Source of the DNA: a virus
Lineage: Duplodnaviria > Heunggongvirae > Uroviricota > Caudoviricetes
DNA length: 64,000 bases
Strand: one strand, 5' to 3'
IMG/VR virus record: IMGVR_UViG_3300006899_000574
This document shows positions 5,010-25,305 of the stretch, in pieces. Position numbers and translations under genes: made by a program. The first letter of the stretch is position 1, and each line of letters begins with the position of its first letter. The notes under the pieces are model-generated. The model was given only the letters and a program-made list of their open reading frames with translations. It was not told where the DNA came from and did not search any database.

Positions 5010-5226
5010 TTATCTCTCCTGTTGTCAAAATACTCAGTGCTTGCTGTGCGTCGCCGTCAGACGCAAACCACGCCTGTAGGATGTCGATCTCCGGTCTCCC
5101 GGTCTGCTCCTTGAGTCTGTGGATACTTGCGTTGGCGCGGTTGACGGCCTCGTGATAAGCATTGCGCTGGTCCTCTGCAACGCGACGTCGAAGCCAGTGT
5201 TCGGCTTGTTCGTAGATATCAGTCAT
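4996..5226 (-). CDS. hypothetical protein
   Basis: 76-aa ORF. Confidence 0.3.
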   Translation of the reverse strand: MTDIYEQAEHWLRRRVAEDQRNAYHEAVNRANASIHRLKEQTGRPEIDILQAWFASDGDAQQALSILTTGEINGTD

Positions 5227-5492
5227 GACTCGCGCTGGGTTCCAGCGTCAGCGCAATCCTGGTGCGTACGGAATTTTGCCACACCCAGGCATACCATTGC
5301 CCGTTCTCCAGCCAGATGATCTTCTGGACCCCCGGCTGATCCCAGGCCGCCCTTACGGAATCCGGAAGTGATACGCGGTGTCCACATCCGCCGCAAAACT
5401 GCGTAGCCCCGCTCCTGCCAGACCAGCGAGAGCTTCTCGTAGGTCTCAAGTCTGGCTTCTTGTTGTTGAATAAAGAACGGTGAAAGGCTCAT
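5223..5492 (-). CDS. hypothetical protein (start at MSLSPFF, ATGA overlap with the ThyX stop)
   Basis: ORF plus coupling. Confidence 0.35.
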   Translation of the reverse strand: MSLSPFFIQQQEARLETYEKLSLVWQERGYAVLRRMWTPRITSGFRKGGLGSAGGPEDHLAGERAMVCLGVAKFRTHQDCADAGTQRES

Positions 5493-7393: not shown

Positions 7394-7605
7394 CTTGCCT
7401 CCTTCTGCGCCAGCGCCGCTATTACTTTTTCTTTTAACGGTTGGAATCTTATATCCTGTTTATTCAGGATGTAGTTCTCATGATGAGACTCGCCGTCAAA
7501 ATGAGGCGTGTCATGGATTTTGTGCATCTTCTTCAGATACGTCCGTAACCGCGCTTCAGACATACGGGAAATCTCGACATCAGTAACAATACGCACGGTC
7601 TTCAT
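7390..7605 (-). CDS. hypothetical protein
   Basis: 71-aa ORF, ATGA coupling on both sides. Confidence 0.4.
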   Translation of the reverse strand: MKTVRIVTDVEISRMSEARLRTYLKKMHKIHDTPHFDGESHHENYILNKQDIRFQPLKEKVIAALAQKEAR

Positions 7606-7973
7606 CTTGATATCTCTACGGCGGCTCGATAGGCCTCAGCGATTTCACGCAGACTGTAGATATCCAGTGGGTTTTCTTCCTGTGCTCCTCTTGCAGTCAA
7701 CATCCTCGGTCTGACGATCTGTTCGATGGCTTCCGTAGTAGGAAGTATCTCAAAGCCCTCGCCCCAGGTTTCGTCGTTGATGTCATCCAGTTCGACGAAG
7801 TTAAACTCATACTTGAACGCCTTCCAGGCGAGATCGGAACTGCTCTCCCATTGCGGCCACTCGTCGTCTTTGCTGACGAACTGCTCGTAAGTGATGGGCG
7901 GCGTGATTACAGGCAAGTCTTTCAGTTTGACGACTCTGCCCTTGAACTTGTCTTCATATGTATTGTAAGTCAT
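7602..7973 (-). CDS. hypothetical protein
   Basis: 123-aa ORF, coupled. Confidence 0.45.
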   Translation of the reverse strand: MTYNTYEDKFKGRVVKLKDLPVITPPITYEQFVSKDDEWPQWESSSDLAWKAFKYEFNFVELDDINDETWGEGFEILPTTEAIEQIVRPRMLTARGAQEENPLDIYSLREIAEAYRAAVEISR

Positions 7974-8461
7974 GCTGGTTTGTCCGTGGATTTCTCCTCT
8001 GAAGTCCGCAGAGCCGGCCAGGGGTATCGTTTATCATTTCCAAGTTCGTCTAACGCCGCTTGTAAGGCGTCGCGCCGGGCAAAATATATCTCTGTGTTTG
8101 TCCGATTCTTAGAATAGCCGCAACATATGTAAGTTTCTCCTACATGATTCAGGTTTAAGTAGTAAGGGTAAGGCACACGGTCGAGATTAGGCGGGTTCAG
8201 CTTATCTGCGTAGTAGCGAATAATCGCCCACGCGATGGCATGCTTGCTGGCCCAGATAACTTGCGCTCGGGTTGTATAGGCCCAGCGCAGGCCGAGTTGC
8301 GGCCCTGTATAGCCGAGACTCGGGTCCAAAAGAAAGCCCGGCACATACCCGGGTGCCCCCCAGGGTAACTCCAGTGCGGGGCTCTTCATCATCAGCCGCT
8401 GGAGTTCCTCCTGTATGTCTTGCAATTGTTTCTGAAGCTCTGCGATTCGTGTTGAGTCCAT
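7970..8461 (-). CDS. hypothetical protein
   Basis: 163-aa ORF. Confidence 0.45.
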   Translation of the reverse strand: MDSTRIAELQKQLQDIQEELQRLMMKSPALELPWGAPGYVPGFLLDPSLGYTGPQLGLRWAYTTRAQVIWASKHAIAWAIIRYYADKLNPPNLDRVPYPYYLNLNHVGETYICCGYSKNRTNTEIYFARRDALQAALDELGNDKRYPWPALRTSEEKSTDKPA

Positions 8462-14032: not shown

Positions 14033-14600
14033 TGGACTCTTTCCCCTCTTCTGGTTTGAAATAGCTCAAGAGCTTCTGCTGGTCTTCACTGCACACCACC
14101 GTGATGGCCGGTAGCTTACGCGCTTTGGAATCTATGATGGAGATGATAGGGCTTGTGATGTTGGCGTTGACGAGGTTGATGTGAGTTTGCGTGCTCCACT
14201 GATCTTCGAGCTTCTGGTAGCCTTCGTCGCTCACGCGGTCACTGCCCCACATATCGCCGAAGATGAAGATCGCGCCTCGTGGTACCGCAAAGCCGATGTA
14301 GTCTCCCGGGCGGTCTCCCACGGGCTTTGTCCAGGCACACTGGATGGCCTGCAAGGCGGCTTCGTGCTCGCGCTTCAGCGCCTGCAACTCGGCTTCCAGT
14401 GCAGTGAGTTTCTGTGCGTGATCTCCGGCCTTGCTGATTTCCAGCGGGCCGAGTTTAATACTGGCTGAAGTCCGCAGGATCTTCCAGACCGCTACTCCGG
14501 CAACCACTACGGCGGCCAGCATGACGATCGAAGTAACCCGGGCCCCCCATGCTGAGATCATTACGTCCCAGAAAGCTTCCGGCATGCCCACAGATTCCAT
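14010..14600 (-). CDS. membrane-anchored hypothetical protein
   Basis: N-terminal TM helix followed by a coiled-coil segment. Confidence 0.45.
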   Translation of the reverse strand: MESVGMPEAFWDVMISAWGARVTSIVMLAAVVVAGVAVWKILRTSASIKLGPLEISKAGDHAQKLTALEAELQALKREHEAALQAIQCAWTKPVGDRPGDYIGFAVPRGAIFIFGDMWGSDRVSDEGYQKLEDQWSTQTHINLVNANITSPIISIIDSKARKLPAITVVCSEDQQKLLSYFKPEEGKESNVTLEIR

Positions 14601-14620: not shown

Positions 14621-16627
14621 CTATTGGATTTGCATCACTTTGAATGCCTGTCGTGCGGCATCTATCCGTTTGCGGAAATCGACGTCCGCAAAATCCGGCT
14701 TCTTGCCGCTGGCCTTATATGCCAGGCGCGTCTGTTGCTGTTCATAGCTCACCGATGGCATGTAGCCGACTTTGTGTATGCTGAAGGCGGCGTGTGCCAT
14801 GGCATCACTGACGTCCTTTGCGTGAACTCCGCATTTCGAATTCTCGAAGTCACCTCTGTAGTCGTTGACTCTCATGCCCTTGCTGTGATCAATCTTCTCC
14901 GGGCCCCTTTTGTTCTTTGCTCTCGTGCGGTAGAGGCTGTCGAGATTGTTCCTGACGAAAACATTGGGCCCCACTTTGAGTCTGCCGCTGAGCATTCTGG
15001 AGTAGAGCTGTGTATAGGGCTGGATGTCGATATCCACCGAAGACCTTACGGCATTGATGTCGTTCCTCACCAGATACTGGATGAGGTTGGCGCTTTGGTA
15101 CTGGTCAACACTGACCTGCTCGATGTGAACTCTGCCTTTGTCCCGGAGATCACGGATGAACATCTGGATGGCTTCGAGGTTGATGCCGTTGGGGCCCGGT
15201 GCCACCGCAAATGCGAAGTCGAAGATCGTCGTGGCGGTACCATCTTCCATTTGTTCCTCGTGAGCCATGGCGATGCCTGCGACGTCTCCTCGAACGCTGG
15301 TTGCCAGATCCACTCCGATGTAGCGCGGCGCTGACGGCGCGCGGATCAGCGACAGATCAACTCCGTTCCCTTTTGAAAAGAACAGGTGGCTGACGGCGTT
15401 CCAGATCAAATCCTCCGGGATGGACTTGCTGTCGGCCACAACTGAGGCTTCGACGTTGGGAAGCGTGGGGTCGAAGATCGACGCAATCAGACTGCGTTGT
15501 TGCAGGAACTTGCTCTCGCTGGTGGCGGGCTGGCCCGCGATGTCTTTGATGGACTTCAGCAAGTTGTCTTCAAAAGCCTGTTTGACATCAATTGGAGGGG
15601 ATACCACCAGACCGGGGGCGTAGTTGTGTTCCTCTCCGGGTTCCAGGATACGAGCGGGAGTCTCGCCATCCCCCACGCAGACATGGAAGACCTGGGAGTT
15701 GTCTTTGTGGTATGCGGGGAAAAACTTCTCACAGAGTTCCGGAGCATCCCACTGCTTGCGCCAGCGGAAGTATACCTCTGGCCGGTATTGCATCTTGCTG
15801 ATGATGTGCTGTTCGATCTGCGACTCCGCCAGGTTTGCCGACGTATCCAGCAGTGTGAACGCCAGGTAGTTGTTGCCAACAGTGCCTCGAATACGACTGA
15901 CGGTATCGGTGTAGATGCGGAAAATCTGCTCCTCGGTGGCCCCGGCTTTCTCGATAAAGAAGCCGATCTCTGAGATGAAGGCGCAGATGATGTTGGCGCC
16001 GATGATTGACAGCGCGTCGTCATTACCCGTCACGAGTTGCAGGCCAGATGCCAGCGTGATCTCCCCGACTCTCGCGGCCTCTGAATACACGATGATGTCG
16101 TCTCCAGCGGCTTCCTGCTCTTCTCGCACGTTGTCGCGGAAGTGTGTCTTCTGGAACCTCGGGCTCTGCTCTAGAATCTCGAACAGCGGCTGAATGTAGA
16201 GTTCATACACCTTCTCATACTTGAAGCTCATCAAGTAGATGGAAAGCGCGGAGGTTGAGATCAAATTGTAGGCCCCCGCCATGCTGGTAAGGTGGTGCAT
16301 GTAGACTATGACATACGCCATGAGCAGGACAGATCCCACGCTTTTTCCCATACGGACAGCGCCGTATAACGCCACCTGCGAATACTTTCCGCTGAGGATA
16401 TTACAGAAGTCCTCCTTGACGTGTGCAAAGAGTTTGTTGGCCACTCCCTCCGGAAGCCAGCCGTTGCGGGGGTCGAGGAACTCCTCCGGGCTGGGGGGCG
16501 GTTTGCGAAATGTGTGTCCCTGCAACTGGCGGAGCAACGCAGTGTTGCCGCCGAGGATCTCCTTCACTGCCTGCTGTTCGACGGCACTGAGCTTGTTGAA
16601 ATCAGCGGCAAGATTTTCTGGCAACAC
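14621..16627 (-). CDS. terL: terminase large subunit
   Basis: Walker A-like ATPase GAVRMGKS, C-terminal nuclease-like YIGVDLA..D; 668 aa, a gp17-like size. Confidence 0.85.
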   Translation of the reverse strand: MLPENLAADFNKLSAVEQQAVKEILGGNTALLRQLQGHTFRKPPPSPEEFLDPRNGWLPEGVANKLFAHVKEDFCNILSGKYSQVALYGAVRMGKSVGSVLLMAYVIVYMHHLTSMAGAYNLISTSALSIYLMSFKYEKVYELYIQPLFEILEQSPRFQKTHFRDNVREEQEAAGDDIIVYSEAARVGEITLASGLQLVTGNDDALSIIGANIICAFISEIGFFIEKAGATEEQIFRIYTDTVSRIRGTVGNNYLAFTLLDTSANLAESQIEQHIISKMQYRPEVYFRWRKQWDAPELCEKFFPAYHKDNSQVFHVCVGDGETPARILEPGEEHNYAPGLVVSPPIDVKQAFEDNLLKSIKDIAGQPATSESKFLQQRSLIASIFDPTLPNVEASVVADSKSIPEDLIWNAVSHLFFSKGNGVDLSLIRAPSAPRYIGVDLATSVRGDVAGIAMAHEEQMEDGTATTIFDFAFAVAPGPNGINLEAIQMFIRDLRDKGRVHIEQVSVDQYQSANLIQYLVRNDINAVRSSVDIDIQPYTQLYSRMLSGRLKVGPNVFVRNNLDSLYRTRAKNKRGPEKIDHSKGMRVNDYRGDFENSKCGVHAKDVSDAMAHAAFSIHKVGYMPSVSYEQQQTRLAYKASGKKPDFADVDFRKRIDAARQAFKVMQIQ

Positions 16628-16734
16628 CTGGTATTAGGGAATTTGTTTGACAGCTCGGTGTGCTGTCGTTGTAGTGCAAACCATGAATCAAGACGCAATC
16701 AGCTTCGGAACCTACCGGGGCTTCCACATCACGC

Positions 16735-17052
16735 ATGACAGAGACCCTCCGCGCATCCGTGGATCTGCACTACAAATCCCGGCTCACGGCCAGAGAGCAG
16801 AAAGTCTTTCGACTTACCCGCGAAGGAAAGCTCCAGGCTGGGAAGCTCACCAGCTACATCTCGCGAAAAAGCACATGGCGCGACGGACAGGACTTCACTT
16901 TTCGGGTTCTCTGGGGCACAAGTAAGGCCGCCTGTCAGGAAGGCTATCTTCAATCGTGCATCGACGAATTCTCCTGGAGATTTTCAAATCGAAAAAACGA
17001 GAATATTTTCCACGATTACATGAAGCGGACGGTGCTTGTTAAAACAGCGTAA
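16735..17052 (+). mobile_element. IS1595-family (ISXO2-like) transposase C-terminal tail remnant, copy 1
   Basis: YLQSCIDEFSWRFSNRKNENIFHDYMKRT matches the IS1595 Tnp C-terminus (Y.dEFxFRxNxR). Confidence 0.5.
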
Positions 17053-17056
17053 GAAA

Positions 17057-17611
17057 CTATCTAAATTCATCAATTCCGATGGGTATTGCTTTTGAAGAAT
17101 GGACACGAACTTGATTTATGCGACCGTAAGTATCTTCTACTTTTGGATGCACAGGCAAATCGCTTCGTCCGCCAAATCTGTTCCTATCATTCTTCCTGTA
17201 ATGCTCCCAATCTGGGCCATCGTCTGGTTGTAGATCGCTTTTTCTTGCTTTGAAAACAAGAAATACAGGATCACGCCCAGCGTGAGCTAAGTATGTTCCA
17301 AGACCATTCTTAGAACCAAGAAAAATAAACTGCCCAAGTGGATTCTTCCACACAGATTTTTCTGTTGCAACATCTCTATTCCAGCCAGAATCCAAAATTG
17401 CCTGAGCGTTCTCTCTGCTTGTCGCATGGTATAGAGCTACATAATTATCATCTGGAATGCTGGCTAATCGTTTCCAGTTTCCATTTGGATCGATTGCACC
17501 GTCAATGATGTAGTACCTACCAAAATCATCGTGTTTTTCAATTCGAGAAAAATTTGCTTCATACAGCGATCCGCCGCTCTCATAAAGCCTTTGCAATTCT
17601 ACCAGACGCAT
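17057..17611 (-). CDS. putative H-Y-E class ADP-ribosyltransferase fold protein (PARP/Tpt1-KptA/DarT-like); cargo 1
   Basis: VALYHATSRENAQAILDSGW resembles the HG(S/T)...IL..G NAD-binding motif of PARP/Tpt1/DarT; N-terminus MRLVELQRLYESGGSLYE is shared with the ORF at 18583-18957. Confidence 0.45.
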   Translation of the reverse strand: MRLVELQRLYESGGSLYEANFSRIEKHDDFGRYYIIDGAIDPNGNWKRLASIPDDNYVALYHATSRENAQAILDSGWNRDVATEKSVWKNPLGQFIFLGSKNGLGTYLAHAGRDPVFLVFKARKSDLQPDDGPDWEHYRKNDRNRFGGRSDLPVHPKVEDTYGRINQVRVHSSKAIPIGIDEFR

Positions 17612-17681
17612 ACCTGTATCTTTAGTGATCTGAGGCGATTCTAATGCGTCATAAGCCTGTGTACACTGAGGGATAATTCCG
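17612..17681 (-). promoter_or_regulatory. conserved upstream region of cargo gene 1, including a candidate sigma70-like promoter (TGTACA-16-TAGAAT) and the GGGATAATTCCG motif
   Basis: About 85% DNA identity to the region upstream of cargo gene 2. Confidence 0.3.
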
Positions 17682-17682
17682 T

Positions 17683-17707
17683 AAAAAAAAGGCGGAGGTT
17701 ATCCGCC
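17683..17707 (-). terminator. rho-independent terminator
   Basis: GGCGGA-ggtta-TCCGCC hairpin with an A8 run on the plus strand (T8 on the minus strand). Confidence 0.5.
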
Positions 17708-17733
17708 TCTTGAACAATGGACCGCTCTGCCTG

Positions 17734-18348
17734 TCAGCCGTAGATGACCTCCCCGAAAATCGAGAGTTGCAGTGCGACATCCGCCATAACGGCATCCCAG
17801 TCTCCGGCGTCGTAGAAGCTCGCGGGAGCATCGCCGCGCCACTTACCGTTCTGGATCATGAGGTGGTAGAGTTCGAGGCCCTTGGCGAAGCTCGCGTAGG
17901 TCACCGTCCAGAGCTTCAAGCCCGTCCGCTCATCGGTTTCCTCAACATGCTGGGCCACAGACGCTTTGTAGTCCATAAACTGATCTACTGTGGTCATGTC
18001 CTTTGTGGCGTCTGCGCAGGAGGAGCACAGGCACAGCGCAACGTCGGCCCAGGGCTGACCGTCGCTCCCCTTGCAATCCGAAAGCGGATGTGAGTGGTAG
18101 AGCGAGCCTCCGGGCTCATCAGCGGCGTCTTTACCGCAGGCATAACAGGTGAATTCCGCCCCCAGAGTCTCCTGATCGTGGAACTTAAATCTGCCTTCGC
18201 CTTCGTAGGAGAACTCTGTGCAGATCATGCAGAAACTGTATTCCGGGTAGTTCTCCATGACGTCTTTCGCGAGCTGGAGATAGGTCATGCCTCCCTGACG
18301 TTCTTCCGCAATGCGCTGATCAATTGTTTTTGTCGCTGTTGTTTCCAT
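17734..18348 (-). CDS. Cys-rich hypothetical protein (possible zinc-binding)
   Basis: 204 aa; CMICTE, CYACGK and CLCSSCAD clusters; bracketed by an inverted GGGATAATTCCG pair. Confidence 0.5.
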   Translation of the reverse strand: METTATKTIDQRIAEERQGGMTYLQLAKDVMENYPEYSFCMICTEFSYEGEGRFKFHDQETLGAEFTCYACGKDAADEPGGSLYHSHPLSDCKGSDGQPWADVALCLCSSCADATKDMTTVDQFMDYKASVAQHVEETDERTGLKLWTVTYASFAKGLELYHLMIQNGKWRGDAPASFYDAGDWDAVMADVALQLSIFGEVIYG

Positions 18349-18402
18349 GGAGACACCATATCCCCCGGCACAAAGTTGTCAACACAAAATGCAAAAAAAA
18401 AA

Positions 18403-18414
18403 CGGAATTATCCC
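18403..18414 (+). repeat. GGGATAATTCCG motif in inverted orientation (also at 17670-17681 and 19028-19039)
   Basis: Exact 12-mer three times within 1.4 kb. Confidence 0.6.
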
Positions 18415-18419
18415 GAAAC

Positions 18420-18572
18420 ATGAAGCGTGGGATTATCGGCTCGTATCACCACATCAGCCCGAAGTACCTGCAAGCATACATCGACGAATTTTCCTGGAGG
18501 TTCAGCAATCGGAAGAACGAGAACATCTTTCACGATTTTATGAAGCGAACTTTGCTGGCTACTGCGGCGTGA
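18420..18572 (+). mobile_element. IS1595-family transposase C-terminal tail remnant, copy 2 (50 aa)
   Basis: MKRGIIGSYHHISPKYLQAYIDEFSWRFSNRKNENIFHDFMKRT is the canonical IS1595 Tnp tail. Confidence 0.55.
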
Positions 18573-18582
18573 ACTGGTTTGG

Positions 18583-18957
18583 TCAGTTTACAGTATGATT
18601 TCCAGAGTTCAGTTCGTCCATTTCGGTACCTTCTTTGATCTCAAGTTTATGTTTTCGTGCTATTGTTTCAATAGCTTTTTTCTGCACCTTATTCAAGTGA
18701 TCCCATCTCATTCGCAACCACAGTTTTTTATCATTGGTAATGATGAAATCACGCCAGCCAATGGCTCTCGCATCTGCTCTTATTGAATCATGAAGATTAT
18801 CATTTTTATCTCGATTAAGAATTGTAAAAGCACCAAGACGATGATTCTCCCATTTTGACACTTCACCTTCTGGTGAAAGCCAGAACGATTCATAAGTAAA
18901 AGATTCATACAATGATCCGCCACTCGCATAAAGTCGTTGTAGTTCTACCAGTCTCAT
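18583..18957 (-). CDS. hypothetical protein; cargo 2 (N-terminus shared with the ART-like gene)
   Basis: MRLVELQRLYASGGSLYE then divergent sequence; 124 aa. Confidence 0.5.
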   Translation of the reverse strand: MRLVELQRLYASGGSLYESFTYESFWLSPEGEVSKWENHRLGAFTILNRDKNDNLHDSIRADARAIGWRDFIITNDKKLWLRMRWDHLNKVQKKAIETIARKHKLEIKEGTEMDELNSGNHTVN

Positions 18958-19039
18958 GTCCTTTGTATCTTTAGTAAACAGGCAGGCGATCCAGTTCGAT
19001 CAGACGACATAACTGGATGTACTCTGCGGGATAATTCCG
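18958..19039 (-). promoter_or_regulatory. conserved upstream region of cargo gene 2 with the GGGATAATTCCG motif
   Basis: Duplicate of 17612-17681. Confidence 0.3.
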
Positions 19040-19072
19040 AAAAAAAATCCCCCGGCTGTGACCCCGGGGGAT
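19040..19072 (-). terminator. rho-independent terminator downstream of the capsid gene
   Basis: TCCCCCGG-ctgtga-CCGGGGGA hairpin with an A8 run on the plus strand. Confidence 0.55.
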
Positions 19073-19097
19073 TGCTCAAGTAGGCTCTTCAGAGGGA

Positions 19098-20654
19098 TTA
19101 CTTGATGTTGTTGATTTGCAGGAGCTTGATGAAGCCCGGCTGAATCACGTTTTCGCCCTCAACATGCGCGAGGACAACTTCACGATACATCTGTGGGTAG
19201 TCCAGACCAGCACTGAGTTCTGTCAGTGTGCCGAACGCCAGAGACGGTTCGCCTTCTTCTTGCGCGTTTTTGTATACACAAATCGCTTCTCCAGAAGATG
19301 AAGTTCCCGCTACTGTTGTGGAGTGACTTGGAGTCACGTAGACGTCGATGTCCGCAAGTTTACCCGCGAGATAGGAAGCGCCAACCTTCTGTTGAGAAGA
19401 AGCGGATTTCCACTGGAGGTTCTTACGGAAGTAGTTCACGGCTTTCGGGTTGCCCACGATTTTCGTGATCTCACCACGTTGCAGTGCATCGAAGATATCG
19501 CCACCGATGTTATCGATGGTTGTCAGGATACGCTGAGCGTGGTTAAAGTCGTTGTCGTCGTTTCCACTTGCCGGATCTGCGTCGAACACATATGGAGTGC
19601 TCTGTCCCGCTACGCGTCTTGCGAGCTGGAAGGCTTTGAAGTCACGGCGTTTTGCCATCTCGTCGCCTGCGCGCTTGATGATCTGCTCGTCGAAGTCGCC
19701 GAGTCCAGTGGTCTCGAACGTCAGTTCGGACATCTTGGAGTAAGCGATGCGAATCGGATGCATCATGAGGTGGAATGGACGCTTGTAGACTTTCAGCTGA
19801 ATGTCGTTGTAAGACGAGTAGTTCGCGCTGTTTTCTGCATCCCATACTGCCTGCGCACGGATTTCAACACCAAGTGCTGGAGCCGTAGTCAGAGTCACAG
19901 AGAATGTTCCCGCTGTGTAGCTCACGGTTCCCGAAGACACAGTGGCTGTTGTGCCGCCGCTACCGTTCGGAGTTCCGATGAGGTTTCCCGCACCGTCGTC
20001 TGTGCCCACAAACGCATTACCTACAACGATTTGCACGCTGTGTGGCTTGATATTTGTAGGAGAGAATGTTCCTGTGAACGTTGTAGTCGCGCCGTCACCT
20101 GTGGAAGGTGTGCCGTTGATGGTCTGGAAAGCTCCGCCGTAATCCGCAGTTACTGCGCCGTAATCGTAGATACGATTGCCAGCTGTAGCGCCGCGAATAG
20201 ATGTTCCGTAGACTCCGTCTACATAGAAGAGCGCGTCGTTTACAGACGTAAGTGCCCATTCTGTGAAGACGTCAGCACGGTTGCTGTTCGCCACGCCGAT
20301 GCGGACGATGCGCAACACGTTCTCTGGAGACGTGCCGAAAGCCGAGGAGATTTGGGTTCCGGATTCCCGGATGTGAAGCATGTGTCTGCGCTGGTTTTCC
20401 AGGAGCAGTGCTGTGTTCCGTGCAATGGTAGGAGACTTGGCGTAAACGCTTTCCAGATATTGTCCTTCTGGTCTGCGGTTCCATTCTTCTACAAGACGGT
20501 CCAGAGCTACAATGCGTTTTTCGATGTACTGCTCGCGAGACGCGGCAGGACGATTTTCAGTCAGTGACTGCTGTGCAGGAAGTCGGCGTCCGTGCTTGTA
20601 GGCAACGGGTGCTGGGAGACGACCGGCAACAGGCGCATTTCTGAGTCGTTGCAT
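19098..20654 (-). CDS. putative major capsid protein
   Basis: 518 aa; the ORF is bracketed by strong terminators at 19040-19072 and 20792-20826 (the upstream one separates it from the scaffold-like gene); Gly/Thr-rich insertion domain; lies downstream of a scaffold-like gene. Confidence 0.5.
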   Translation of the reverse strand: MQRLRNAPVAGRLPAPVAYKHGRRLPAQQSLTENRPAASREQYIEKRIVALDRLVEEWNRRPEGQYLESVYAKSPTIARNTALLLENQRRHMLHIRESGTQISSAFGTSPENVLRIVRIGVANSNRADVFTEWALTSVNDALFYVDGVYGTSIRGATAGNRIYDYGAVTADYGGAFQTINGTPSTGDGATTTFTGTFSPTNIKPHSVQIVVGNAFVGTDDGAGNLIGTPNGSGGTTATVSSGTVSYTAGTFSVTLTTAPALGVEIRAQAVWDAENSANYSSYNDIQLKVYKRPFHLMMHPIRIAYSKMSELTFETTGLGDFDEQIIKRAGDEMAKRRDFKAFQLARRVAGQSTPYVFDADPASGNDDNDFNHAQRILTTIDNIGGDIFDALQRGEITKIVGNPKAVNYFRKNLQWKSASSQQKVGASYLAGKLADIDVYVTPSHSTTVAGTSSSGEAICVYKNAQEEGEPSLAFGTLTELSAGLDYPQMYREVVLAHVEGENVIQPGFIKLLQINNIK

Positions 20655-20791
20655 ATAGTAACCTTTTGGTTTGTTTGATTGAGGGCCGAACTCACTCTCT
20701 CAGCCTGCGAGCCTTGGTCCGAAAATCTTAGCCGGGCTGTCGGATTCAGCCCCCTTGCGCTTTTAGTGTGGGAAGATTTCAGAGATCAGGG

Positions 20792-20826
20792 CAAAAAAAA
20801 AGCCCGGGGCAACCCGGGCTTTTCGT
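20792..20826. terminator. bidirectional rho-independent terminator
   Basis: A9-GCCCGGGG-caa-CCCCGGGC-TTTT. Confidence 0.55.
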
Positions 20827-20836
20827 CTGCCGACAT

Positions 20837-22699
20837 TTACAGTCGGTCTCTGAGCCAGGATGGTCGATTCGCCGCCCGGCTGGACTCCGTGAAGCTGGTT
20901 CCACTGTCTTCGCTGGCGCGAATCACGGGGTCTTCACCATTCCTTGTCATGGCTTCCACTACGCGCACGGCTTCGAACAACGTCTTGCTGTTCAGCACGG
21001 CATCGCGATGGCGCTGGAGTGCGGGGTATTCTGCGGCTTTCTGCTCGTAGAAGCTCCGGATCTCGTTGCGCACCACGGACTCCTTGATTCCCTCAGCAGG
21101 CGCTTTGCGAGAAGCAGAGTTTGCGCGCTCACCCATTGTGTAGCCCCGAGAACTTGCCTGACGGCGCATGGCGGGACTTGCGGTCTCCTGTCCCTTGCCT
21201 TCGGAATTTTCCTGCGGGAACCTGGGGTTAACAGCACGCGGAGCCCCGATGACTTCCGCATACGGATCGTCTTCCAGGCCGGCTTCGCGCAGTCTGTTGC
21301 GAAGGATAGCAATGCTCTCCTCTGCGACTGCGAGGTCTTCCGTGAGGTTGGTCACGCTGGCCACGAGCTTCAACACATCGCCTTCCATAACCATGCGGTC
21401 TTTGAGGGATTTCTTGATGTCGCCGTCGCGAGCCTCAAGTTGTTTCACCAGGAATTCGTTGTCGGCCACGAGTTCGCGGTTTTCGCCTTCGTAGACCTTG
21501 TTGTCTTTGGAGATTTTGTTGATTTCCTTCTCGTAAATCTGAAGATCAGCGTCTTTGATTTTTTCGTTGAGCTTGTATTTGGCTTCATTGGCCTTGAAGG
21601 TCTCGATGGACTCCGCCATGTCGTCAACTACCTTGAGCTTGTCCAGAGTCTCTGGAGTTCCGCCCAGGCGTTCGATTACCGCCACCATCTGCTTGTTGGC
21701 CTTGCGGGCTTCCACCAGCATCTGCTCGGCAAGAGCGAGTTTTTTTGCCGTGCCCTGGAGCGCTACCTGAGCGTCCTGACCCTTGAGAGCGGCTTCGCTG
21801 ATTGCGGCTTCCAGTTGCTCGCGGGCTTCTGCGATCTTCTGGCGTTCAGCCGGCATGCTTTCGACTACGACCGCAAAGCCTTTGAGGTCTTCGAAACGCT
21901 CTGTGAGTTCTTGCAGATCGCCGGACTTCAGAGCTTTGTTTGCGAGCTTCACGCGCTCGGATGTCTGGTACTTTGCATTGCCTTCAAGCAGTTTTACTTG
22001 ATCCATATTATTGCTGTTCCTCGCTTCTGATTTAGAAGTACTTCTGTCATTAGTATTTTGATTTTCCCGAAATCCCGTGTTTTCACCGAGATTTGCGATG
22101 GTTGCAAATACTCCCTGACTGGGCTGAAACACGCAGTCCGTGCGCTCATAGATGAAGGTCTCGGGATCAACAACTCCCTCAAGGATGAAGCCGTTGGCGT
22201 CGTAGTAGTTCTCCTTGATCTGGCCGAATCCCACTGTTGACAGCCCCACGCCTTTGGCGCCGGCTTGCAGGGTTTCGAGGATGAGCTTGCCGATGGGGCC
22301 CACGAGATACCAGTCCACGTATCCACATTCCTCTCCCAGCCTGGCGTTGTGGAAGACGCCGCAGATGCGCTCCATACTGCCGTCGCCGCTGTGCGGGTGG
22401 TAGTTGGTGTTCTCCAGTGGATGGTCGCAGAACGACAGACTGCCTTCGATGGTCTCCAGCACGCGTTGCCATAGCTCTCTGAGATACGTGCGGCCGTTGC
22501 GGTTGCGTGTGAACCTCGTGAACGGCACGTTGCGTACGATTGCGAGTGCCTGGTATTTGCCCTGCGTGCCTTCAGTCAGGACTCCGGGCTCACAGCGTTC
22601 AATGGTTACTCCGGTGTCGCCAAGGCTCACCTGAGATGATTCTACGAGCACGCGTAAACCGAGTTTAGCCGCTCTGGACTCCAGATATGTGGTGGTCAT
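20837..22699 (-). CDS. putative prohead scaffolding protein with long coiled coil (N-terminal globular domain, possibly a protease)
   Basis: About 300 aa of heptad-rich E/K/A/L sequence in the centre; position just upstream of the MCP. Confidence 0.4.
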   Translation of the reverse strand: MTTTYLESRAAKLGLRVLVESSQVSLGDTGVTIERCEPGVLTEGTQGKYQALAIVRNVPFTRFTRNRNGRTYLRELWQRVLETIEGSLSFCDHPLENTNYHPHSGDGSMERICGVFHNARLGEECGYVDWYLVGPIGKLILETLQAGAKGVGLSTVGFGQIKENYYDANGFILEGVVDPETFIYERTDCVFQPSQGVFATIANLGENTGFRENQNTNDRSTSKSEARNSNNMDQVKLLEGNAKYQTSERVKLANKALKSGDLQELTERFEDLKGFAVVVESMPAERQKIAEAREQLEAAISEAALKGQDAQVALQGTAKKLALAEQMLVEARKANKQMVAVIERLGGTPETLDKLKVVDDMAESIETFKANEAKYKLNEKIKDADLQIYEKEINKISKDNKVYEGENRELVADNEFLVKQLEARDGDIKKSLKDRMVMEGDVLKLVASVTNLTEDLAVAEESIAILRNRLREAGLEDDPYAEVIGAPRAVNPRFPQENSEGKGQETASPAMRRQASSRGYTMGERANSASRKAPAEGIKESVVRNEIRSFYEQKAAEYPALQRHRDAVLNSKTLFEAVRVVEAMTRNGEDPVIRASEDSGTSFTESSRAANRPSWLRDRL

Positions 22700-22729
22700 A
22701 CCTGAAGTTAGTGAAGACCGTAGTTGGCT

Positions 22730-23113
22730 TCAGGCCTGAAGCGTGCAGGGAGTCGTCATCAGAGATGAGAAGCTCAAGGCATGTGCGGTGACGTTTCGGA
22801 GGCCGCGCAGTGCTTGTTGTTGCCGCAGGCGGCCCGAGGGGTTCATGGAGTGCAACACCACAACAGCGGGGCACAACAGTTCGTGCGCCTCCATCCACAA
22901 CGTGACTTCGTAACCGGTGTTCTCCACCCTGGTCACCATGACTTCACCACCGAGATCGTGATCGAGAAACGCGATGTCGAAACTCTGGGACGTCAGTGCC
23001 TGTATGGCTTCAGCCGCTGTGTGAACAAAGACAACGTCGTGTCCGGGCGTCAGCCATCTGCTGAAAGCCCGGTGCCGGTTGTCATCATCGTCAAGAAAAA
23101 GGATGCGCATCAA
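22730..23113 (-). CDS. stand-alone CheY-like receiver (REC) domain protein
   Basis: ILFLDDDD acidic pocket, phospho-acceptor FLDHDL, VVLHSMNP; 127 aa. Confidence 0.55.
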   Translation of the reverse strand: MMRILFLDDDDNRHRAFSRWLTPGHDVVFVHTAAEAIQALTSQSFDIAFLDHDLGGEVMVTRVENTGYEVTLWMEAHELLCPAVVVLHSMNPSGRLRQQQALRGLRNVTAHALSFSSLMTTPCTLQA

Positions 23114-25305
23114 TCTTTCAGCGGCTTCTGCGCGTCTCTCATCATGGAGTTGATTTTCATTCTGGCTTCATGCCAGGAGTTGGCTTTCGCCAGGGGTTCC
23201 GCACCTCTCATGGACTTGTCGAAGATGCCGAACTTCCCGCCGGCAAGCATGCGGATTTCCATTACCTGACGTGCGAGTTTCTCCTGGACTTTCTCGCCTG
23301 CCTTCTCGGCTGATTGAGTCTCAACCACGCGCTGGAGCTGAAACAAGGGTTCTCTGGTTTCGGCGTCATTGATGCCGATGTCGTTCTCCCCCAGGTCTTC
23401 GACTTCGATCTGATGGGCTTTGACGTCACGCCTCAGCTCACCTGCGGCAATCAGGATGTCAACGAGCTGTTGCTCTTCTTCTTCTGTAATGCCCATCGCC
23501 ACTTCTGGAGGAAGTTCTACGAACCTGCCGGTATGATGCGCGTCATTGACTTCAAAACCTTCTTCTGCATTTCCCCAGACATCAAGCCAGATGACTTCCC
23601 ACCGGTTGTTGCCTTCTGTGGATTCCCGGATACCTCCTCCTGCGGGCTGAGTGCTTACGTCTACAGACACGTAGTAGTAGAGATCGCCGCCTTCGTCTTG
23701 CAGAACGTCTTCGATCATCCCCTCTAACTCATCTGCTTTGTCTTCATAGACATCGTCGGTTTCTGGATCTATAAACTCTGGATTTTCCGCCAGGATTTCG
23801 TCGCGAATTTGTGTTTTCAACTCCTCCACTGCGGATGAAGATGCGCCAGCGCTTGCGGCTTCTGTTGCGATTGCGGACTCGATCTGACTTAAATCCCAAT
23901 CATCTGAAGCCAGTTGATCAAGTGCGTCTTCCAGAGCGTCTTCAAATGTGTCTCCGGCTCCAGTTGCGGTGTCCTCCATATCGGAATGCGCGAGACCGTG
24001 GCCCCGGAAATATTGCGCGTGATCAATTCCGTGATCGTGGATGACATAGCTACGAGCTACTTTGCCTTCTGTGGATTCCTGAAGCATGGAGGTGCCATTA
24101 GAAATGCGAGAGATGATGTCTTCAGCAACATTGAAGAGAGTTACGTCCAGTCCTTTCACTTGTGGGCGAGGAGAACCCACCTCCTTGTAAACCGTTGCCA
24201 GAGCGGGATCATCTGTAGGGCCTACGCCATGATTGAGGATCGGACCCATTATTACCAACCACAGTGCTCGATCATCTACGTCCTGGAGTTTGCCCAGGTT
24301 TTCGGAGCCAATTTGTTCTGCAATTTGTCTCACGAGTTCTTCGACTGGCGCAATGTAACTATCTATGTCAATCCCGTGTTCTTGCAACCCTATAGGCACA
24401 GTTTCCGTAATGTCTTCCTGAGACCTGACAAAATCGGATAGCGCGTCATGGTTTTCGCGTTCCAGCGCATCCGCTACCGACATAGAAATAAGATCGCGTG
24501 CTACTTCTTTGATCAGTAAGGATGATCCTTCTACGGATTCCTGAAGCGAGGATGGATCATCACCAGAGAGTCTGTCTCCGTCTTCGTTAACCCGCGCGCC
24601 GGAGGGAACCATGTCCCGCTTCAATTGCGAAGTGATGGAGGTCCGAGCTTTCTGGAACCCGCGTCCATTTGCTGACATCTTCGGAGCGCCTGCAATCTGC
24701 CACTGGTAAGTATCACCCTGTTTGGAGAGGTTGATATCAATGCCGTAGTCATCCAGAACTGCGGAGAGTTGCTTGAAGTTTTTTGCCGCGTTCATGCGGG
24801 CTTCGAACTCAGCGGGGTCAATTGAACTCAGTTGTTGCTGAACATGCGTCAGTGACTCGTTCCATCGCGGGGCCGGAGACTGTGCCACTCTAGCGGATTC
24901 CATCATGCCGTCTTCTGCTTCGCCCTTGCTGGAGTAGATGACGGTGTCGTTTTGCATATGCTTTGCGGCGAGATCAGCGGCCTCGTAGCCGTCGCCTACG
25001 CTGGAGGAGGCCTCGGAGTTCGTGAAGCTCAGAAGGTCTTGTGCTATGGCCGCAGGGAACGTGGCCTGCACGATGTCCATGCCTTCATCTACCCCGGCCC
25101 AGTAGCTGGGGGATCTTGCGGCGTCGTTGTCGCTGACGCCATACAGGTAGCCGTCGCCGATGTAGCAGAGGTAGAGTTGAACGGTTTGACCTGACTCAAG
25201 ATTTTCCACCACCTGGCGTTCTTGTAGCACGCGCTGAGCGCCGGCTACAGCACGAAGGTATCTCTGGTATTGAGGATCACGGGGGTCACGAGTAGAGGGA
25301 GTCAT
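23110..25305 (-). CDS. large highly acidic hypothetical protein (portal or virion protein candidate)
   Basis: 731 aa, D/E-rich; positioned upstream of REC, scaffold and MCP. Confidence 0.45.
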   Translation of the reverse strand: MTPSTRDPRDPQYQRYLRAVAGAQRVLQERQVVENLESGQTVQLYLCYIGDGYLYGVSDNDAARSPSYWAGVDEGMDIVQATFPAAIAQDLLSFTNSEASSSVGDGYEAADLAAKHMQNDTVIYSSKGEAEDGMMESARVAQSPAPRWNESLTHVQQQLSSIDPAEFEARMNAAKNFKQLSAVLDDYGIDINLSKQGDTYQWQIAGAPKMSANGRGFQKARTSITSQLKRDMVPSGARVNEDGDRLSGDDPSSLQESVEGSSLLIKEVARDLISMSVADALERENHDALSDFVRSQEDITETVPIGLQEHGIDIDSYIAPVEELVRQIAEQIGSENLGKLQDVDDRALWLVIMGPILNHGVGPTDDPALATVYKEVGSPRPQVKGLDVTLFNVAEDIISRISNGTSMLQESTEGKVARSYVIHDHGIDHAQYFRGHGLAHSDMEDTATGAGDTFEDALEDALDQLASDDWDLSQIESAIATEAASAGASSSAVEELKTQIRDEILAENPEFIDPETDDVYEDKADELEGMIEDVLQDEGGDLYYYVSVDVSTQPAGGGIRESTEGNNRWEVIWLDVWGNAEEGFEVNDAHHTGRFVELPPEVAMGITEEEEQQLVDILIAAGELRRDVKAHQIEVEDLGENDIGINDAETREPLFQLQRVVETQSAEKAGEKVQEKLARQVMEIRMLAGGKFGIFDKSMRGAEPLAKANSWHEARMKINSMMRDAQKPLKD

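What the first reader, a model, noticed from the sequence alone, without database searches (positions are those of the whole stretch)
16735..18572. IS1595 transposase tails conserved at protein level despite synonymous DNA divergence
The two tails both encode IDEFSWRFSNRKNENIFHD(Y/F)MKRT. Their DNA differs at many third positions, and one Ser codon even switches family (TCA versus AGC). Almost every difference is synonymous, which is the signature of purifying selection on the peptide. Neutrally decaying IS relics would not show this, and a recent gene conversion would make the DNA identical. Copy 2 is a 50-aa ORF consisting only of the canonical Tnp tail (GSYHHISPKYLQAYIDEFSWRFSNR). The tail may have acquired a function of its own or be part of a recombination module.
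Basis: seen in the sequence. Interest (0 to 1): 0.6.

Follow-up and report, generated by a model that had tools for sequence, protein, structure and literature searches.

The report
Truncated cargo-carrying IS1595 transposons in phage
The two conserved "transposase tails" are leftover 3' ends of two related, gutted IS1595-family transposons that each carry a small unknown gene and landed in terminator T-runs of a phage genome; their silent-site divergence was most likely inherited from full-length transposase ancestors, so it does not show that the tails do anything themselves.

Summary
The two 35-codon tails (16945-17052, 18465-18572) differ at 28/108 nt but at only 7/35 residues (pS 0.83, pN 0.12; 0 of 20,000 random-mutation trials did as well). 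They match only positions ~240-291 of a 299-position IS1595 transposase profile, and nothing else in the window resembles a transposase.

Each tail is one block of a larger repeated unit: tail (+), a convergent ORF on the minus strand (184 aa, 124 aa), a shared 18-19-aa N-terminal leader, a conserved 70-82-nt 5' region, and a terminal repeat GGGATAATTCCG.
- Copy 2 is a bounded 637-bp element (18403-19039) with exact 13-bp inverted repeats and an A8 target duplication.
- Copy 1 has lost its left end. A GC break at 16944/16945 marks the junction.
- Both right ends abut the U-tract of a phage terminator.
- Complete metagenomic relatives have the same repeat type (N5-TATCCC), 8-bp A/T-rich duplications and cargo genes.

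Relic-relic, relic-full and full-full pairs from other loci show the same saturated-synonymous, low-nonsynonymous pattern. That pattern therefore comes from the transposase's own history and does not indicate stand-alone function.

Verdict: ordinary IS debris in an unusual place, a phage, with one curious shared cargo leader. Interest is low to moderate.

The parts
18403..19039 (.). Element 2: a complete non-autonomous IS1595-family derivative (637 bp). Order: left repeat, transposase tail, convergent cargo ORF, right repeat.
   Evidence: Exact 13-bp inverted repeats CGGAATTATCCCG / CGGGATAATTCCG sit at both ends. They are flanked by A8 on each side. GC is 41.9% against 53.8% for the window.
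18403..18415 (+). Left terminal inverted repeat of element 2 (CGGAATTATCCCG).
   Evidence: The 12-mer occurs 3 times in the window against 0.17 expected. It is the same repeat type as the complete relatives L009, L008 and L022 (N5-TATCCC).
18395..18402 (.). Left copy of the 8-bp target-site duplication (AAAAAAAA, within an A10 run at 18393-18402).
   Evidence: Read directly from the sequence. Relatives make 8-bp A/T-rich duplications: TCAATATT, TTAAAAAA, AAAAATTT.
19040..19047 (.). Right copy of the 8-bp target-site duplication. It is also the U-tract of the terminator of the capsid-like gene (19098-20654) on the minus strand.
   Evidence: The hairpin at 19046-19073 plus U8 folds at -26.4 kcal/mol.
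18420..18572 (+). Tail copy 2: a 50-aa ORF equal to the last ~50 residues of an IS1595 transposase.
   Evidence: PF12762 at E = 1e-9. Matches positions 240-287 of the 299-position transposase profile. Best full-length relatives are 55-61% identical.
18583..18957 (-). Cargo ORF of element 2 (124 aa, function unknown, GC3 0.29), with the shared N-terminal leader MRLVELQRLYASGGSLYE.
   Evidence: No hit in Pfam, PHROGs, PADLOC or PDB.
18958..19039 (-). Conserved right-end non-coding block of element 2. It holds the ACTAAAGATACA motif and the right repeat at 19027-19039.
   Evidence: About 78% identical to the right end of element 1, with 3 indels.
16945..17681 (.). Element 1: a left-truncated derivative (tail, cargo ORF, right end). 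The left repeat and its target duplication are lost.
   Evidence: Homology to element 2 and to transposases begins at 16945. GC jumps from 57.6% to 38.9% at 16944/16945. No left repeat is found between 16300 and 17060.
16945..17052 (+). Tail copy 1: 35 codons plus the stop. It is fused in frame to 70 phage-like codons (ORF 16735-17052).
   Evidence: The 105-aa ORF has only itself as a database relative.
17057..17611 (-). Cargo ORF of element 1 (184 aa, function unknown, GC3 0.32), with leader MRLVELQRLYESGGSLYE.
   Evidence: One distant homologue of residues 40-180, P0002, lacks the leader. AlphaFold models are unreliable.
17612..17681 (-). Conserved right-end block of element 1. It holds a promoter-like TGTACA-16-TAGAAT, the CACTAAAGATACA motif, and the right repeat GGGATAATTCCG at 17670-17681.
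17682..17712 (-). Flank of element 1: TAAAAAAA(A) plus the hairpin GGCGGAGGTTATCCGCC. Together these form the intrinsic terminator of phage ORF204, whose U8 tract abuts the IS tip.
   Evidence: -20.1 kcal/mol; a 10-bp stem followed by U8.

Best explanation
Two related transposons of the IS1595 family inserted independently into 8-bp A/T runs in a novel ~75-kb tailed-phage genome. They belong to the cargo-carrying 'transporter IS' type, with ends of the form N5-TATCCC. The A/T runs are the U-tracts of the intrinsic terminators that follow the capsid-like gene (19098-20654) and ORF204.

The inferred parent layout is: left repeat, transposase gene, convergent cargo gene, right repeat. In both copies about 80% of the transposase gene has been deleted.
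- Element 2 (18403-19039) lost an internal segment, from about 13-17 nt inside the left repeat to transposase codon ~240. It still has both repeats and its A8 target duplication, so it is a non-autonomous mobile insertion cassette.
- Element 1 (16945-17681) also lost the left repeat and the adjoining DNA. This fused 35 tail codons in frame to phage-like sequence.

The tails are passive remnants. They survive because the deletions stopped short of the cargo genes, whose stop codons lie 4-10 nt from the transposase stop codons. The saturated-synonymous, low-nonsynonymous divergence was laid down while the two lineages were still full-length, functional transposase genes. The same reasoning explains the protein-level conservation of the cargo leader and the DNA-level conservation of the right end.

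Shown here: the transposase homology, the repeats, the target duplication, the terminator targets, the composition break, the family-wide dN/dS pattern, and relatives with the same end type and cargo.

Inferred: the order and independence of the deletions, that the divergence predates them, and that the cargo genes are what the phage retains.
For: 1. Only positions ~240-291 of a 299-position transposase profile are present, in two copies. No other transposase signal appears in any frame of the window.

2. The 12-mer GGGATAATTCCG occurs 3 times against 0.17 expected, exactly at the module boundaries. Element 2 has exact 13-bp inverted repeats plus A8/A8.

3. Complete relatives found through the tail have the same repeat register and 8-bp A/T-rich duplications.
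- L009: GGCAGTTATCCC, duplication TCAATATT, 1609 bp, transposase carrying PF12762 and PF12760.
- L008: GGTAAGTATCCC, duplication TTAAAAAA, cargo of a C5 methylase and an NgoBV-type endonuclease.
- L022: CGTAACTATCCCC, duplication AAAAATTT, NYN-domain cargo.

4. Similar truncations recur elsewhere. L026 has the left repeat, about 60 nt, the tail (profile 248-290) and a convergent ORF. L028 has the left repeat followed by profile positions 208-294. Further tail-only relics are L001, L051 and L049.

5. The dN/dS control: relic-relic, relic-full and full-full pairs all show pS 0.5-1 and pN 0.05-0.15, like the window pair.

6. Both elements are 41-42% GC in a 54% GC phage, with a sharp break at 16944/16945.

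7. Both right tips abut the U8 tract of two different strong terminators, which implies two separate insertion events.

8. The truncation points differ (profile position 240 against ~257). Copy 1 has Cys at a near-invariant Tyr.

9. The cargo leader (pS 0.65, pN 0.07) and the right-end non-coding block (~78% identity) are conserved too. The tail is therefore not special within the unit.
Against: - No full-length transposase with a closely matching tail was found. The best are 55-61% identical among 1.84 billion representative proteins, and 51% in 185,579 reference genomes. The postulated full-length parents are therefore unobserved.
- Both copies retain an uninterrupted tail ORF, and both lost roughly the same part of the gene. 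A single already-truncated ancestor would explain this equally well.
- The A8 duplication is low-complexity sequence and sits in a pre-existing T-run, so it is weaker evidence than a complex 8-mer would be.
- No empty-site relative of the phage exists in any collection searched.
- Expression of the tail ORFs was not measured.
Confidence: 0.72

Rival explanations
1. Both copies descend from one ancestor that was already truncated (left repeat, tail, cargo, right repeat), and that lineage has since spread and diverged. On this view the tail has been kept by selection after truncation. It could act as a small peptide, for example a C-terminal fragment that interferes with or regulates the cognate transposase. 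It could also be required in cis for mobilisation or for 3'-end formation of the cargo mRNA.
For: - Both tails are intact ORFs with no stop or frameshift, despite saturated silent sites.
- Both elements have the same architecture.
- L026 shows this architecture (left repeat, tail, convergent ORF) in an unrelated metagenome.
- No full-length close relative was found.
- All three repeat tips share the same 12-nt core, suggesting the elements remained mobilisable in trans.
- On the minus strand, the left repeat of element 2 plus T10 resembles a weak terminator for the cargo transcript.
Against: - The control shows the same dN/dS pattern wherever the tail is compared, so no post-truncation selection is needed to explain it.
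- The truncation points differ (profile position 240 against ~257).
- Copy 1 has lost its left repeat and carries Cys at a near-invariant Tyr.
- The tails lie antisense to all neighbouring genes. Copy 2 starts 17 nt from the tip, without the TTGAC -35 element seen in relatives' left ends.
- Neither tail ORF has a GGAG-type or ACTAA-type initiation signal of the kind used by the phage's genes.
- The substitution pattern is codon-aware in the plus frame, so a DNA- or RNA-level cis role is not what conserved it.
- The hairpin formed by the left repeat is very weak (-4.9 kcal/mol, z = -0.4).
Confidence: 0.15
2. The repeated blocks are native phage recombination or regulatory cassettes that mediate shuffling of small late genes between phages, comparable to the promoter-plus-stem-loop cassettes of T4-type phages. 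On this view the tail is a captured fragment that now serves only as a homology arm.
For: - Homology is confined to the two flanks: the tail on one side, and the leader plus 5' region on the other. The cargo bodies are unrelated (hhalign probability 0.5%).
- Both cargo genes carry the ACTAAAG motif that precedes many of this phage's large minus-strand genes.
- The modules sit in intergenic positions next to terminators.
Against: - The flanks are only 75-80% identical and are saturated at silent sites. That is poor substrate for homologous exchange, and it indicates protein-level constraint, not DNA-level constraint.
- The exact inverted repeats with an 8-bp duplication, and the same end type in genuine IS1595 elements, argue for transposition.
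- No further copies were found in the window or in IMG/VR.
Confidence: 0.05
3. The two copies arose by a segmental duplication inside the phage and then diverged in place.
For: The two units lie 1.5 kb apart in the same orientation and share the same block order.
Against: - Silent sites are saturated, yet the phage sequence between and around the units shows no matching duplication.
- Each right tip abuts a different terminator hairpin.
- The cargo bodies are unrelated.
- Element 2 has its own pair of repeats and its own target duplication.
Confidence: 0.03

Closest known systems
IS1595-family 'transporter IS' elements (IS copies with passenger genes; Siguier, Gagnevin & Chandler 2009, cited in PMC3129680). 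From my memory of ISfinder, the closest subgroup is the ISNwi1 type, with ends ggnnatTAT and 8-bp direct repeats.
   Same: - The transposase C-terminus matches PF12762.
- The terminal repeats have the form N5-TATCCC, as in the complete relatives L009, L008 and L022.
- Target duplications are 8 bp and A/T-rich.
- There is non-transposition cargo between the transposase gene and the right repeat.
   Different: - No catalytic or zinc-ribbon part of the transposase is present.
- The cargo is convergent with the transposase gene, whereas it is co-directional in L008 and L022.
- The carrier is a lytic-looking phage genome.
- Assignment to the ISNwi1 subgroup rests on memory of the ISfinder consensus and was not tested against ISfinder.
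Mobile insertion cassettes (MICs, e.g. MIC231 of Bacillus cereus; cited in PMC3129680)
   Same: IS-type inverted repeats and a target duplication flank a non-transposase coding sequence. No transposase is encoded. Such elements are presumed to be mobilised in trans. Element 2 fits this description.
   Different: MIC231 derives from the IS4-family element IS231. Element 2 also still carries a 50-codon transposase remnant. Trans-mobilisation has not been tested.
MITEs and partial IS copies formed by internal deletion
   Same: The ends are kept and the middle is deleted. L026 and L028 show the same kind of junction between the left repeat and the 3' part of the transposase gene.
   Different: At 637 bp, and with a 124-aa ORF that shows protein-level constraint at its N-terminus, element 2 is not a non-coding MITE.
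MPME1/MPME2, the ultra-small mobile elements of mycobacteriophages (PMC3029335)
   Same: Very small phage-borne mobile elements (439 bp). The description read here mentions a left inverted repeat (IR-L) and no transposase gene. They occur at different sites in closely related phages.
   Different: There is no sequence or family relationship. MPME insertions add a 6-bp sequence and do not make an 8-bp duplication, and no IS1595 remnant is reported for them.
Phage 'morons' (my own knowledge)
   Same: A small AT-rich gene with its own upstream signals is inserted between two phage genes, next to a terminator, and is transcribed in the same direction as the neighbouring genes.
   Different: Here the delivery vehicle can be identified as an IS1595-type transposon. 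Most morons have no recognisable mobility scars.

Membership tests
IS1595 family (as an autonomous insertion sequence) | Encodes a ~300-aa DDE transposase with an N-terminal zinc ribbon (PF12760) and a catalytic core (PF12762) | tested here: not met
   Only profile positions 240-287 and 248/257-291 of 299 are present. Nothing else in the window is transposase-like, in any frame. The elements are derivatives, not autonomous members.
IS1595 family (derivation from it) | Residual coding sequence homologous to the IS1595 transposase C-terminus | tested here: met
   PF12762 at E = 1e-9. Family profile E = 3e-20 and 5e-10. There are 1254 library hits at E <= 0.001; all 65 whose sequences were read carry this tail motif, and the ~300-aa ones among them look like full-length IS1595-type transposases.
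IS1595 family (derivation from it) | Terminal inverted repeats of the type used by related full-length elements | tested here: met
   CGGAATTATCCCG at 18403-18415 and its exact reverse complement at 19027-19039. There is a third copy at 17670-17681. The register xGxAxxTATCCC matches L009, L008 and L022. Element 1 has only the right repeat.
IS1595 family (derivation from it) | 8-bp target-site duplication | tested here: met
   AAAAAAAA flanks element 2 on both sides. Relatives show TCAATATT, TTAAAAAA and AAAAATTT. Caveats: the duplication is low-complexity, and it cannot be tested for element 1 because its left end is lost.
ISNwi1 subgroup of IS1595 | End consensus ggnnatTAT and frequent passenger genes (ISfinder, recalled from memory) | tested here: inconclusive
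   CGGAATTAT matches 8 of 9 positions of the remembered consensus, and cargo is present. ISfinder could not be queried, and literature searches for ISNwi1 gave nothing usable.
Mobile insertion cassette (MIC) | IS-type inverted repeats and a direct repeat flank a non-transposase ORF, with no functional transposase | tested here: met
   Element 2 (18403-19039) contains ORF124 and a 50-codon transposase remnant. Definition taken from PMC3129680.
Mobile insertion cassette (MIC) | Mobilisation in trans by a cognate transposase | not testable with these tools
   No cognate full-length element was found. An experiment is needed.
MITE | Small, non-coding, bounded by inverted repeats | tested here: not met
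   The element carries a 124-aa ORF whose first 19 codons show pS 0.65 and pN 0.07 against the paralogous copy, so it is coding.

The most novel reading that the evidence does not exclude
The two elements may be members of a phage-adapted cassette carrier that depends on a transposase supplied in trans. On this reading the conserved backbone is the left repeat, the transposase tail, then an 18-aa leader (MRLVELQRLYxSGGSLYE), a 5' region carrying the phage's own ACTAAAG pre-start motif, and the right repeat. Unrelated cargo bodies would be swapped in frame into the slot between the transposase stop codon and the leader. The unit would be delivered into terminator U-tracts so that it is expressed alongside the late genes. 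The leader would then be a functional tag, for example a virion-targeting or prohead-protease-processed propeptide ending in L-Y-E. The tail would be a maintained backbone component, either a regulator of the transposase or a recombination arm.
Probability: 0.1. Interest if true: 0.7.

Novelty: new member of a known kind. Interest (0 to 1): 0.3.

Why it matters
- **A general caution.** dN/dS between two pseudogene-like relics cannot show that the relics are functional, because it integrates their earlier life as working genes. The control on other relics and on full-length copies shows this directly for this family.
- **IS elements in phages.** Phages tolerate IS elements poorly (PMC3429520). 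Here there are two insertions that spare phage function. They sit in terminator U-tracts, which the target duplication regenerates. They have shed their transposase genes but kept small AT-rich cargo genes transcribed in the same direction as the phage genes. This is a plausible route by which transposons supply 'moron'-type accessory genes to phages.
- **A possible cargo slot.** Complete relatives with the same end type carry a restriction-modification system and a NYN-domain gene. If the shared cargo leader turns out to be a functional tag, the pair would point to a transposon-borne cargo slot.

Tried and rejected
**Phage relatives and empty sites.**
- megablast and blastn of the region against 50,697 phage records gave no match.
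- IMG/VR scans with ORF204 and with the capsid-like protein (19098-20654) found no relative.
- The only contigs found are the same phage: L052 is 100% identical over 11,960 nt and L002 is 99.9% identical over 935 nt. No population variation was available.

**Further copies of the tail or the elements.**
- IMG/VR scans with the tail, the repeat pattern and two degenerate leader patterns all returned nothing.
- The word-indexed protein search with the 50-aa tail found no candidate.
- The reference-genome scan found one 51%-identical relic in a Chloroflexota MAG.
None carries the leader or the exact repeat.

**Left end of element 1.** No match better than 9 of 13 to the repeat, and no TAAAAAAA, between 16300 and 17060. 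Three-frame Pfam and family-profile scans upstream of 16945 were negative.

**Cargo function.**
- Pfam, PHROGs, PADLOC and PDB sequence searches were negative.
- The AlphaFold models were too poor (pLDDT 34 and 47) to justify a fold search.
- I suspected an ADP-ribosyltransferase-like 'LYHATS' motif in ORF184 from memory, but nothing supported it.

**Homology of the cargo bodies beyond the leader.** BLASTP extends weakly, but hhalign without the leader gives probability 0.5%. Rejected.

**Other checks.**
- Rfam found nothing in the window.
- The window has no tRNA genes.
- I considered a composite transposon around ORF204 and rejected it, because the two repeat tips that flank ORF204 point towards it, so ORF204 lies outside both elements.
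Full report
**1. The observation**

A 105-aa ORF (16735-17052, + strand) and a 50-aa ORF (18420-18572, + strand) both end in IDEFSWRFSNRKNENIFHD(Y/F)MKRT.

The homologous stretch is 35 codons plus the stop (16945-17052 against 18465-18572). A codon alignment of that stretch gives the following:
- 28 of 108 nt differ, split 4/6/18 over codon positions 1/2/3.
- 7 of 35 residues differ. Six of these lie at the two edges.
- The Ser codon switch TCA/AGC is real.
- Nei-Gojobori counts are pS 0.83 (17.25 of 20.8 sites, effectively saturated) and pN 0.116.

When the same number of substitutions is placed at random, the mean is 17.8 amino-acid changes and the minimum is 11. None of 20,000 trials reached the observed 7. 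No other frame is conserved.

**2. What the tails are**

Pfam PF12762 (DDE_Tnp_IS1595) matches copy 2 at the very end of its profile (121-152 of 153, E = 1e-9).
- Copy 2 aligns to positions 240-287.
- Copy 1 aligns to positions 248/257-291.
- No other transposase-like sequence appears in any frame of 16000-19300 or of the whole window.

An exhaustive HMMER search of 1.84 billion representative proteins found 1254 hits at E <= 0.001. The best full-length ones (297-311 aa) are only 55-61% identical in the tail. The closest sequence to copy 2 is copy 1 itself, at 79%. The two tails are therefore sister sequences within a sparsely sampled IS1595 lineage, and each represents only the last ~15% of a transposase gene.

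**3. The larger structure**

Each tail is followed 4-10 nt later by a convergent minus-strand ORF: 17057-17611 (184 aa) and 18583-18957 (124 aa).
- The two ORFs share their first 18-19 residues (MRLVELQRLY[E/A]SGGSLYE) and nothing else. hhalign without the leader gives probability 0.5%.
- The leader is itself conserved at the protein level (12 nt differences, 2 amino-acid differences, pS 0.65, pN 0.07; 0 of 20,000 random trials).
- Upstream of each start codon is a 70-82-nt non-coding block, ~78% identical between the copies, that ends in GGGATAATTCCG.

That 12-mer occurs three times in the window against 0.17 expected: at 17670-17681 and 19028-19039 in one orientation, and at 18403-18414 in the other.

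The third copy lies 4 nt upstream of the copy-2 start codon. As a result, 18403-19039 is a 637-bp unit bounded by exact 13-bp inverted repeats (CGGAATTATCCCG ... CGGGATAATTCCG). It is flanked by AAAAAAAA on both sides (18395-18402 and 19040-19047). This is the anatomy of an insertion sequence with an 8-bp target duplication.

Element 1 (16945-17681) has only the right repeat.
- No left repeat or matching 8-mer exists upstream.
- Homology to transposases stops at 16945.
- GC jumps there from 57.6% to 38.9%.

The first 70 codons of the 105-aa ORF therefore look like phage sequence fused in frame to the tail by a deletion.

Both elements are 41-42% GC in a 54% GC genome. The cargo ORFs have GC3 of ~0.3, against ~0.7 for the terminase gene and ORF204 (0.57 for the capsid-like gene).

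**4. Where they sit**

The window is a phage.
- The ORF at 14621-16627 is a large terminase (about 25% identity to Vibrio phage terminases).
- A T5-type DNA transfer protein and a thymidylate synthase are present.
- There are no close relatives in GenBank phages or IMG/VR.

The same sequence occurs in two JGI metagenomes (L052, 100% identity; L002, 99.9%).

All neighbouring genes are on the minus strand. On that strand, each right tip directly follows the U8 tract of a strong intrinsic terminator:
- The terminator of the capsid-like gene (19098-20654) lies next to element 2 (hairpin 19046-19073, -26.4 kcal/mol).
- The ORF204 terminator lies next to element 1 (GGCGGAGGTTATCCGCC plus U8).

Two different terminators imply two separate insertion events. 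The 8-bp duplication regenerates the U-tract, so the phage terminators remain intact. The cargo genes point the same way as the phage genes, and the tails are antisense.

**5. Support from relatives**

Scanning metagenomes with the tail returned 48 IS1595 loci. Three complete elements have repeats in the same register as the window repeat, together with perfect 8-bp A/T-rich duplications:
- L009: GGCAGTTATCCC, duplication TCAATATT, 1609 bp. Its transposase carries PF12762 and PF12760, and ~660 bp of extra DNA follows the transposase gene.
- L008: GGTAAGTATCCC, duplication TTAAAAAA. Its cargo is a C5 DNA methylase and an NgoBV-type endonuclease.
- L022: CGTAACTATCCCC, duplication AAAAATTT. Its cargo is a NYN-domain gene.

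These are 'transporter IS' elements in the sense used for the IS1595 family (PMC3129680). In them, the left repeat runs straight into a TTGAC -35-like hexamer that lies upstream of the transposase gene. That hexamer is missing from element 2, whose tail ORF begins 17 nt from the tip.

Truncations of the same kind recur in other loci:
- L026 has the left repeat, about 60 nt, a tail (profile 248-290) and then a convergent open frame that runs off the contig.
- L028 has the left repeat joined to profile positions 208-294.
- L001, L051 and L049 are further 3' remnants with more than 1 kb of unrelated upstream sequence.

Many of the best library hits are short ORFs made of a tail fused to something else, including zinc-ribbon-plus-tail and HTH-plus-tail internal deletions (P0039, P0040). 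Because all of these were found through the tail, their frequency is biased upward. They do show that tail-only relics are commonplace.

**6. Does the dN/dS pattern imply a function for the tail?**

It does not. The comparison between two relics sums over their whole history since the common ancestor.

As a control I computed pS/pN over the 20 codons from YLQ for other pairs:

| Pair type | Pair | pS | pN |
|---|---|---|---|
| relic-relic | L026 / L028 | 0.78 | 0.06 |
| relic-full | L026 / L005 | 0.48 | 0.06 |
| relic-full | L028 / L034 | 0.78 | 0.05 |
| full-full | L009 / L012 | 0.65 | 0.09 |
| full-full | L005 / L034 | 0.79 | 0.12 |
| window pair | copy 1 / copy 2 | 0.93 | 0.09 |

The pattern is a property of this conserved transposase segment wherever it is sampled. 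The motif [LF]KRG..G.[YW]H..S.K.L..Y..E...R..NR.N is near-universal in the family.

Several further points argue against stand-alone function:
- The truncation points differ.
- Copy 1 has lost its left repeat and carries Cys at a near-invariant Tyr.
- Neither tail ORF has the GGAG-type or ACTAA-type pre-start signal used by the phage's genes.
- No plus-strand promoter-like site was found.

Within the unit, the cargo leader and the right end are just as conserved as the tail. That is what one expects if two functional sister transposons diverged first and were gutted later.

**7. Best explanation and rivals**

Best explanation, confidence ~0.72: these are two independently inserted, independently truncated, cargo-carrying IS1595-family derivatives. 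Element 2 is a mobile insertion cassette with intact ends. Element 1 is a one-ended relic. The tails are passive remnants that were spared because the deletions stopped before the adjoining cargo genes.

Main rival, ~0.15: a single already-truncated ancestor, so that the tail has been maintained since. What favours this rival is the failure to find any full-length close relative, the identical architecture of both copies and of L026, and the identical repeat tips. The points in section 6 weigh against it.

I rate a native phage recombination cassette (~0.05) and an in-place segmental duplication (~0.03) as unlikely. The reasons are the transposition scars, the different terminators at the two sites, the unrelated cargo bodies and the saturated silent sites.

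**8. What remains odd**

- Two unrelated cargo bodies sit behind the same protein-conserved 18-aa leader, with homology ending exactly at ...SLYE on one side and at the transposase stop codon on the other.
- Both cargo genes carry ACTAAAGATACA 10-13 nt before the ATG.
- The core ACTAA motif precedes at least 13 minus-strand ORFs of 92-739 codons (most over 120) by 6-23 nt (6-13 nt in all but one), including several of the largest genes.
- CACTAA occurs 8 times in the window, all on the coding strand, against 16 expected on both strands.

Either the elements circulate among phages or hosts that use this signal, or the cargo has adapted to the phage. These points feed the 'cargo slot with a functional leader' reading, which I rate at ~10%.

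**9. Verdict**

What is present is a known kind of object, partial IS1595 / MIC-type derivatives, in an uncommon host replicon. Phages tolerate IS elements poorly (PMC3429520), and small phage-borne mobile elements such as MPMEs are known but unrelated (PMC3029335). Novelty: new member of a known kind. Interest: 0.3.

Noticed in passing
window minus strand; starts at 14600, 17611, 18957, 22699, 25305, 27251, 29096, 35443, 40282, 45469 and others. An extra CACTAA at 20763-20768 has no long ORF behind it.: A short motif, (C)ACTAA(A/C/G), lies 6-13 nt upstream of the start codon of 12 of the 13 minus-strand ORFs found (23 nt for the thirteenth); these ORFs are 92-739 codons and include several of the largest genes. 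CACTAA occurs 8 times, all on the coding strand, which is fewer than the 16 expected by chance. Other genes (1-13 kb and 50-61 kb) use GGAG-type Shine-Dalgarno sites. The motif resembles the 3' core of T3/T7-type promoters (CACTAAAG), but the upstream bases are not conserved. It may be a late-gene initiation signal.
   Followed up: partly
window 17555-17611 and 18901-18957 (minus strand): The two cargo ORFs share only an 18-19-aa N-terminal leader (MRLVELQRLY[E/A]SGGSLYE; pS 0.65, pN 0.07) in front of unrelated bodies. P0002, the one outside homologue of the ORF184 body, lacks the leader. No copy of the leader was found in IMG/VR or in the fetched loci.
   Followed up: partly
L008 3007-6072: A complete 3.07-kb IS1595-family element with repeat GGTAAGTATCCC and target duplication TTAAAAAA. 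It carries a type II restriction-modification pair: a C5 methylase (PF00145, E = 2e-82) and an NgoBV-type endonuclease (PF09564, E = 5e-63).
   Followed up: yes
L022 ~5198-7996: A complete IS1595-family element with repeat CGTAACTATCCCC and target duplication AAAAATTT. It carries a NYN-domain gene and a 120-aa ORF of unknown function.
   Followed up: partly
L026 959-1460; L028 1178-1494: Independent internal-deletion derivatives in other metagenomes. In both, the left repeat is joined directly to the 3' part of the transposase gene. L026 is followed by a convergent open frame, the same architecture as window element 2. L009, L026 and L028 all have CAATATT immediately outside the left repeat, which suggests a target preference.
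   Followed up: partly
proteins P0039, P0040 and many of P0003-P0152: Many of the best matches to the tail in the 1.84-billion-protein library are 60-190-aa ORFs. They consist of a tail fused to unrelated N-termini, or are internal deletions (zinc ribbon plus tail; HTH plus tail). Fragmentary IS1595 tails are very common among predicted proteins.
   Followed up: no
window 17734-18348 (minus strand): ORF204 lies between the two elements. It has phage-like GC (56.6%), matches phrog_2355 (unknown function, E = 1e-7), and has a near-consensus sigma-70-type promoter (TTGACA-16-TATGGT, 18382-18355) and its own terminator. It sits between the outward-facing tips of the two elements, so it is not part of either.
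   Followed up: partly
window 14621-25305: On the minus strand the gene order is large structural genes, then the capsid-like gene (19098-20654), then ORF204, then the large terminase. The terminase therefore follows the capsid-like gene, which is an unusual order or an operon boundary. The two IS-derived elements occupy exactly this boundary.
   Followed up: no
L052 3297-3769 (= window 18389-18861): JGI's gene calls for element 2 differ from the reading supported here. JGI calls a 69-aa plus-strand ORF in another frame and a 92-aa minus-strand ORF that omits the leader. The codon-aware conservation supports the 50-aa tail frame and the 124-aa cargo ORF that includes the leader.
   Followed up: yes
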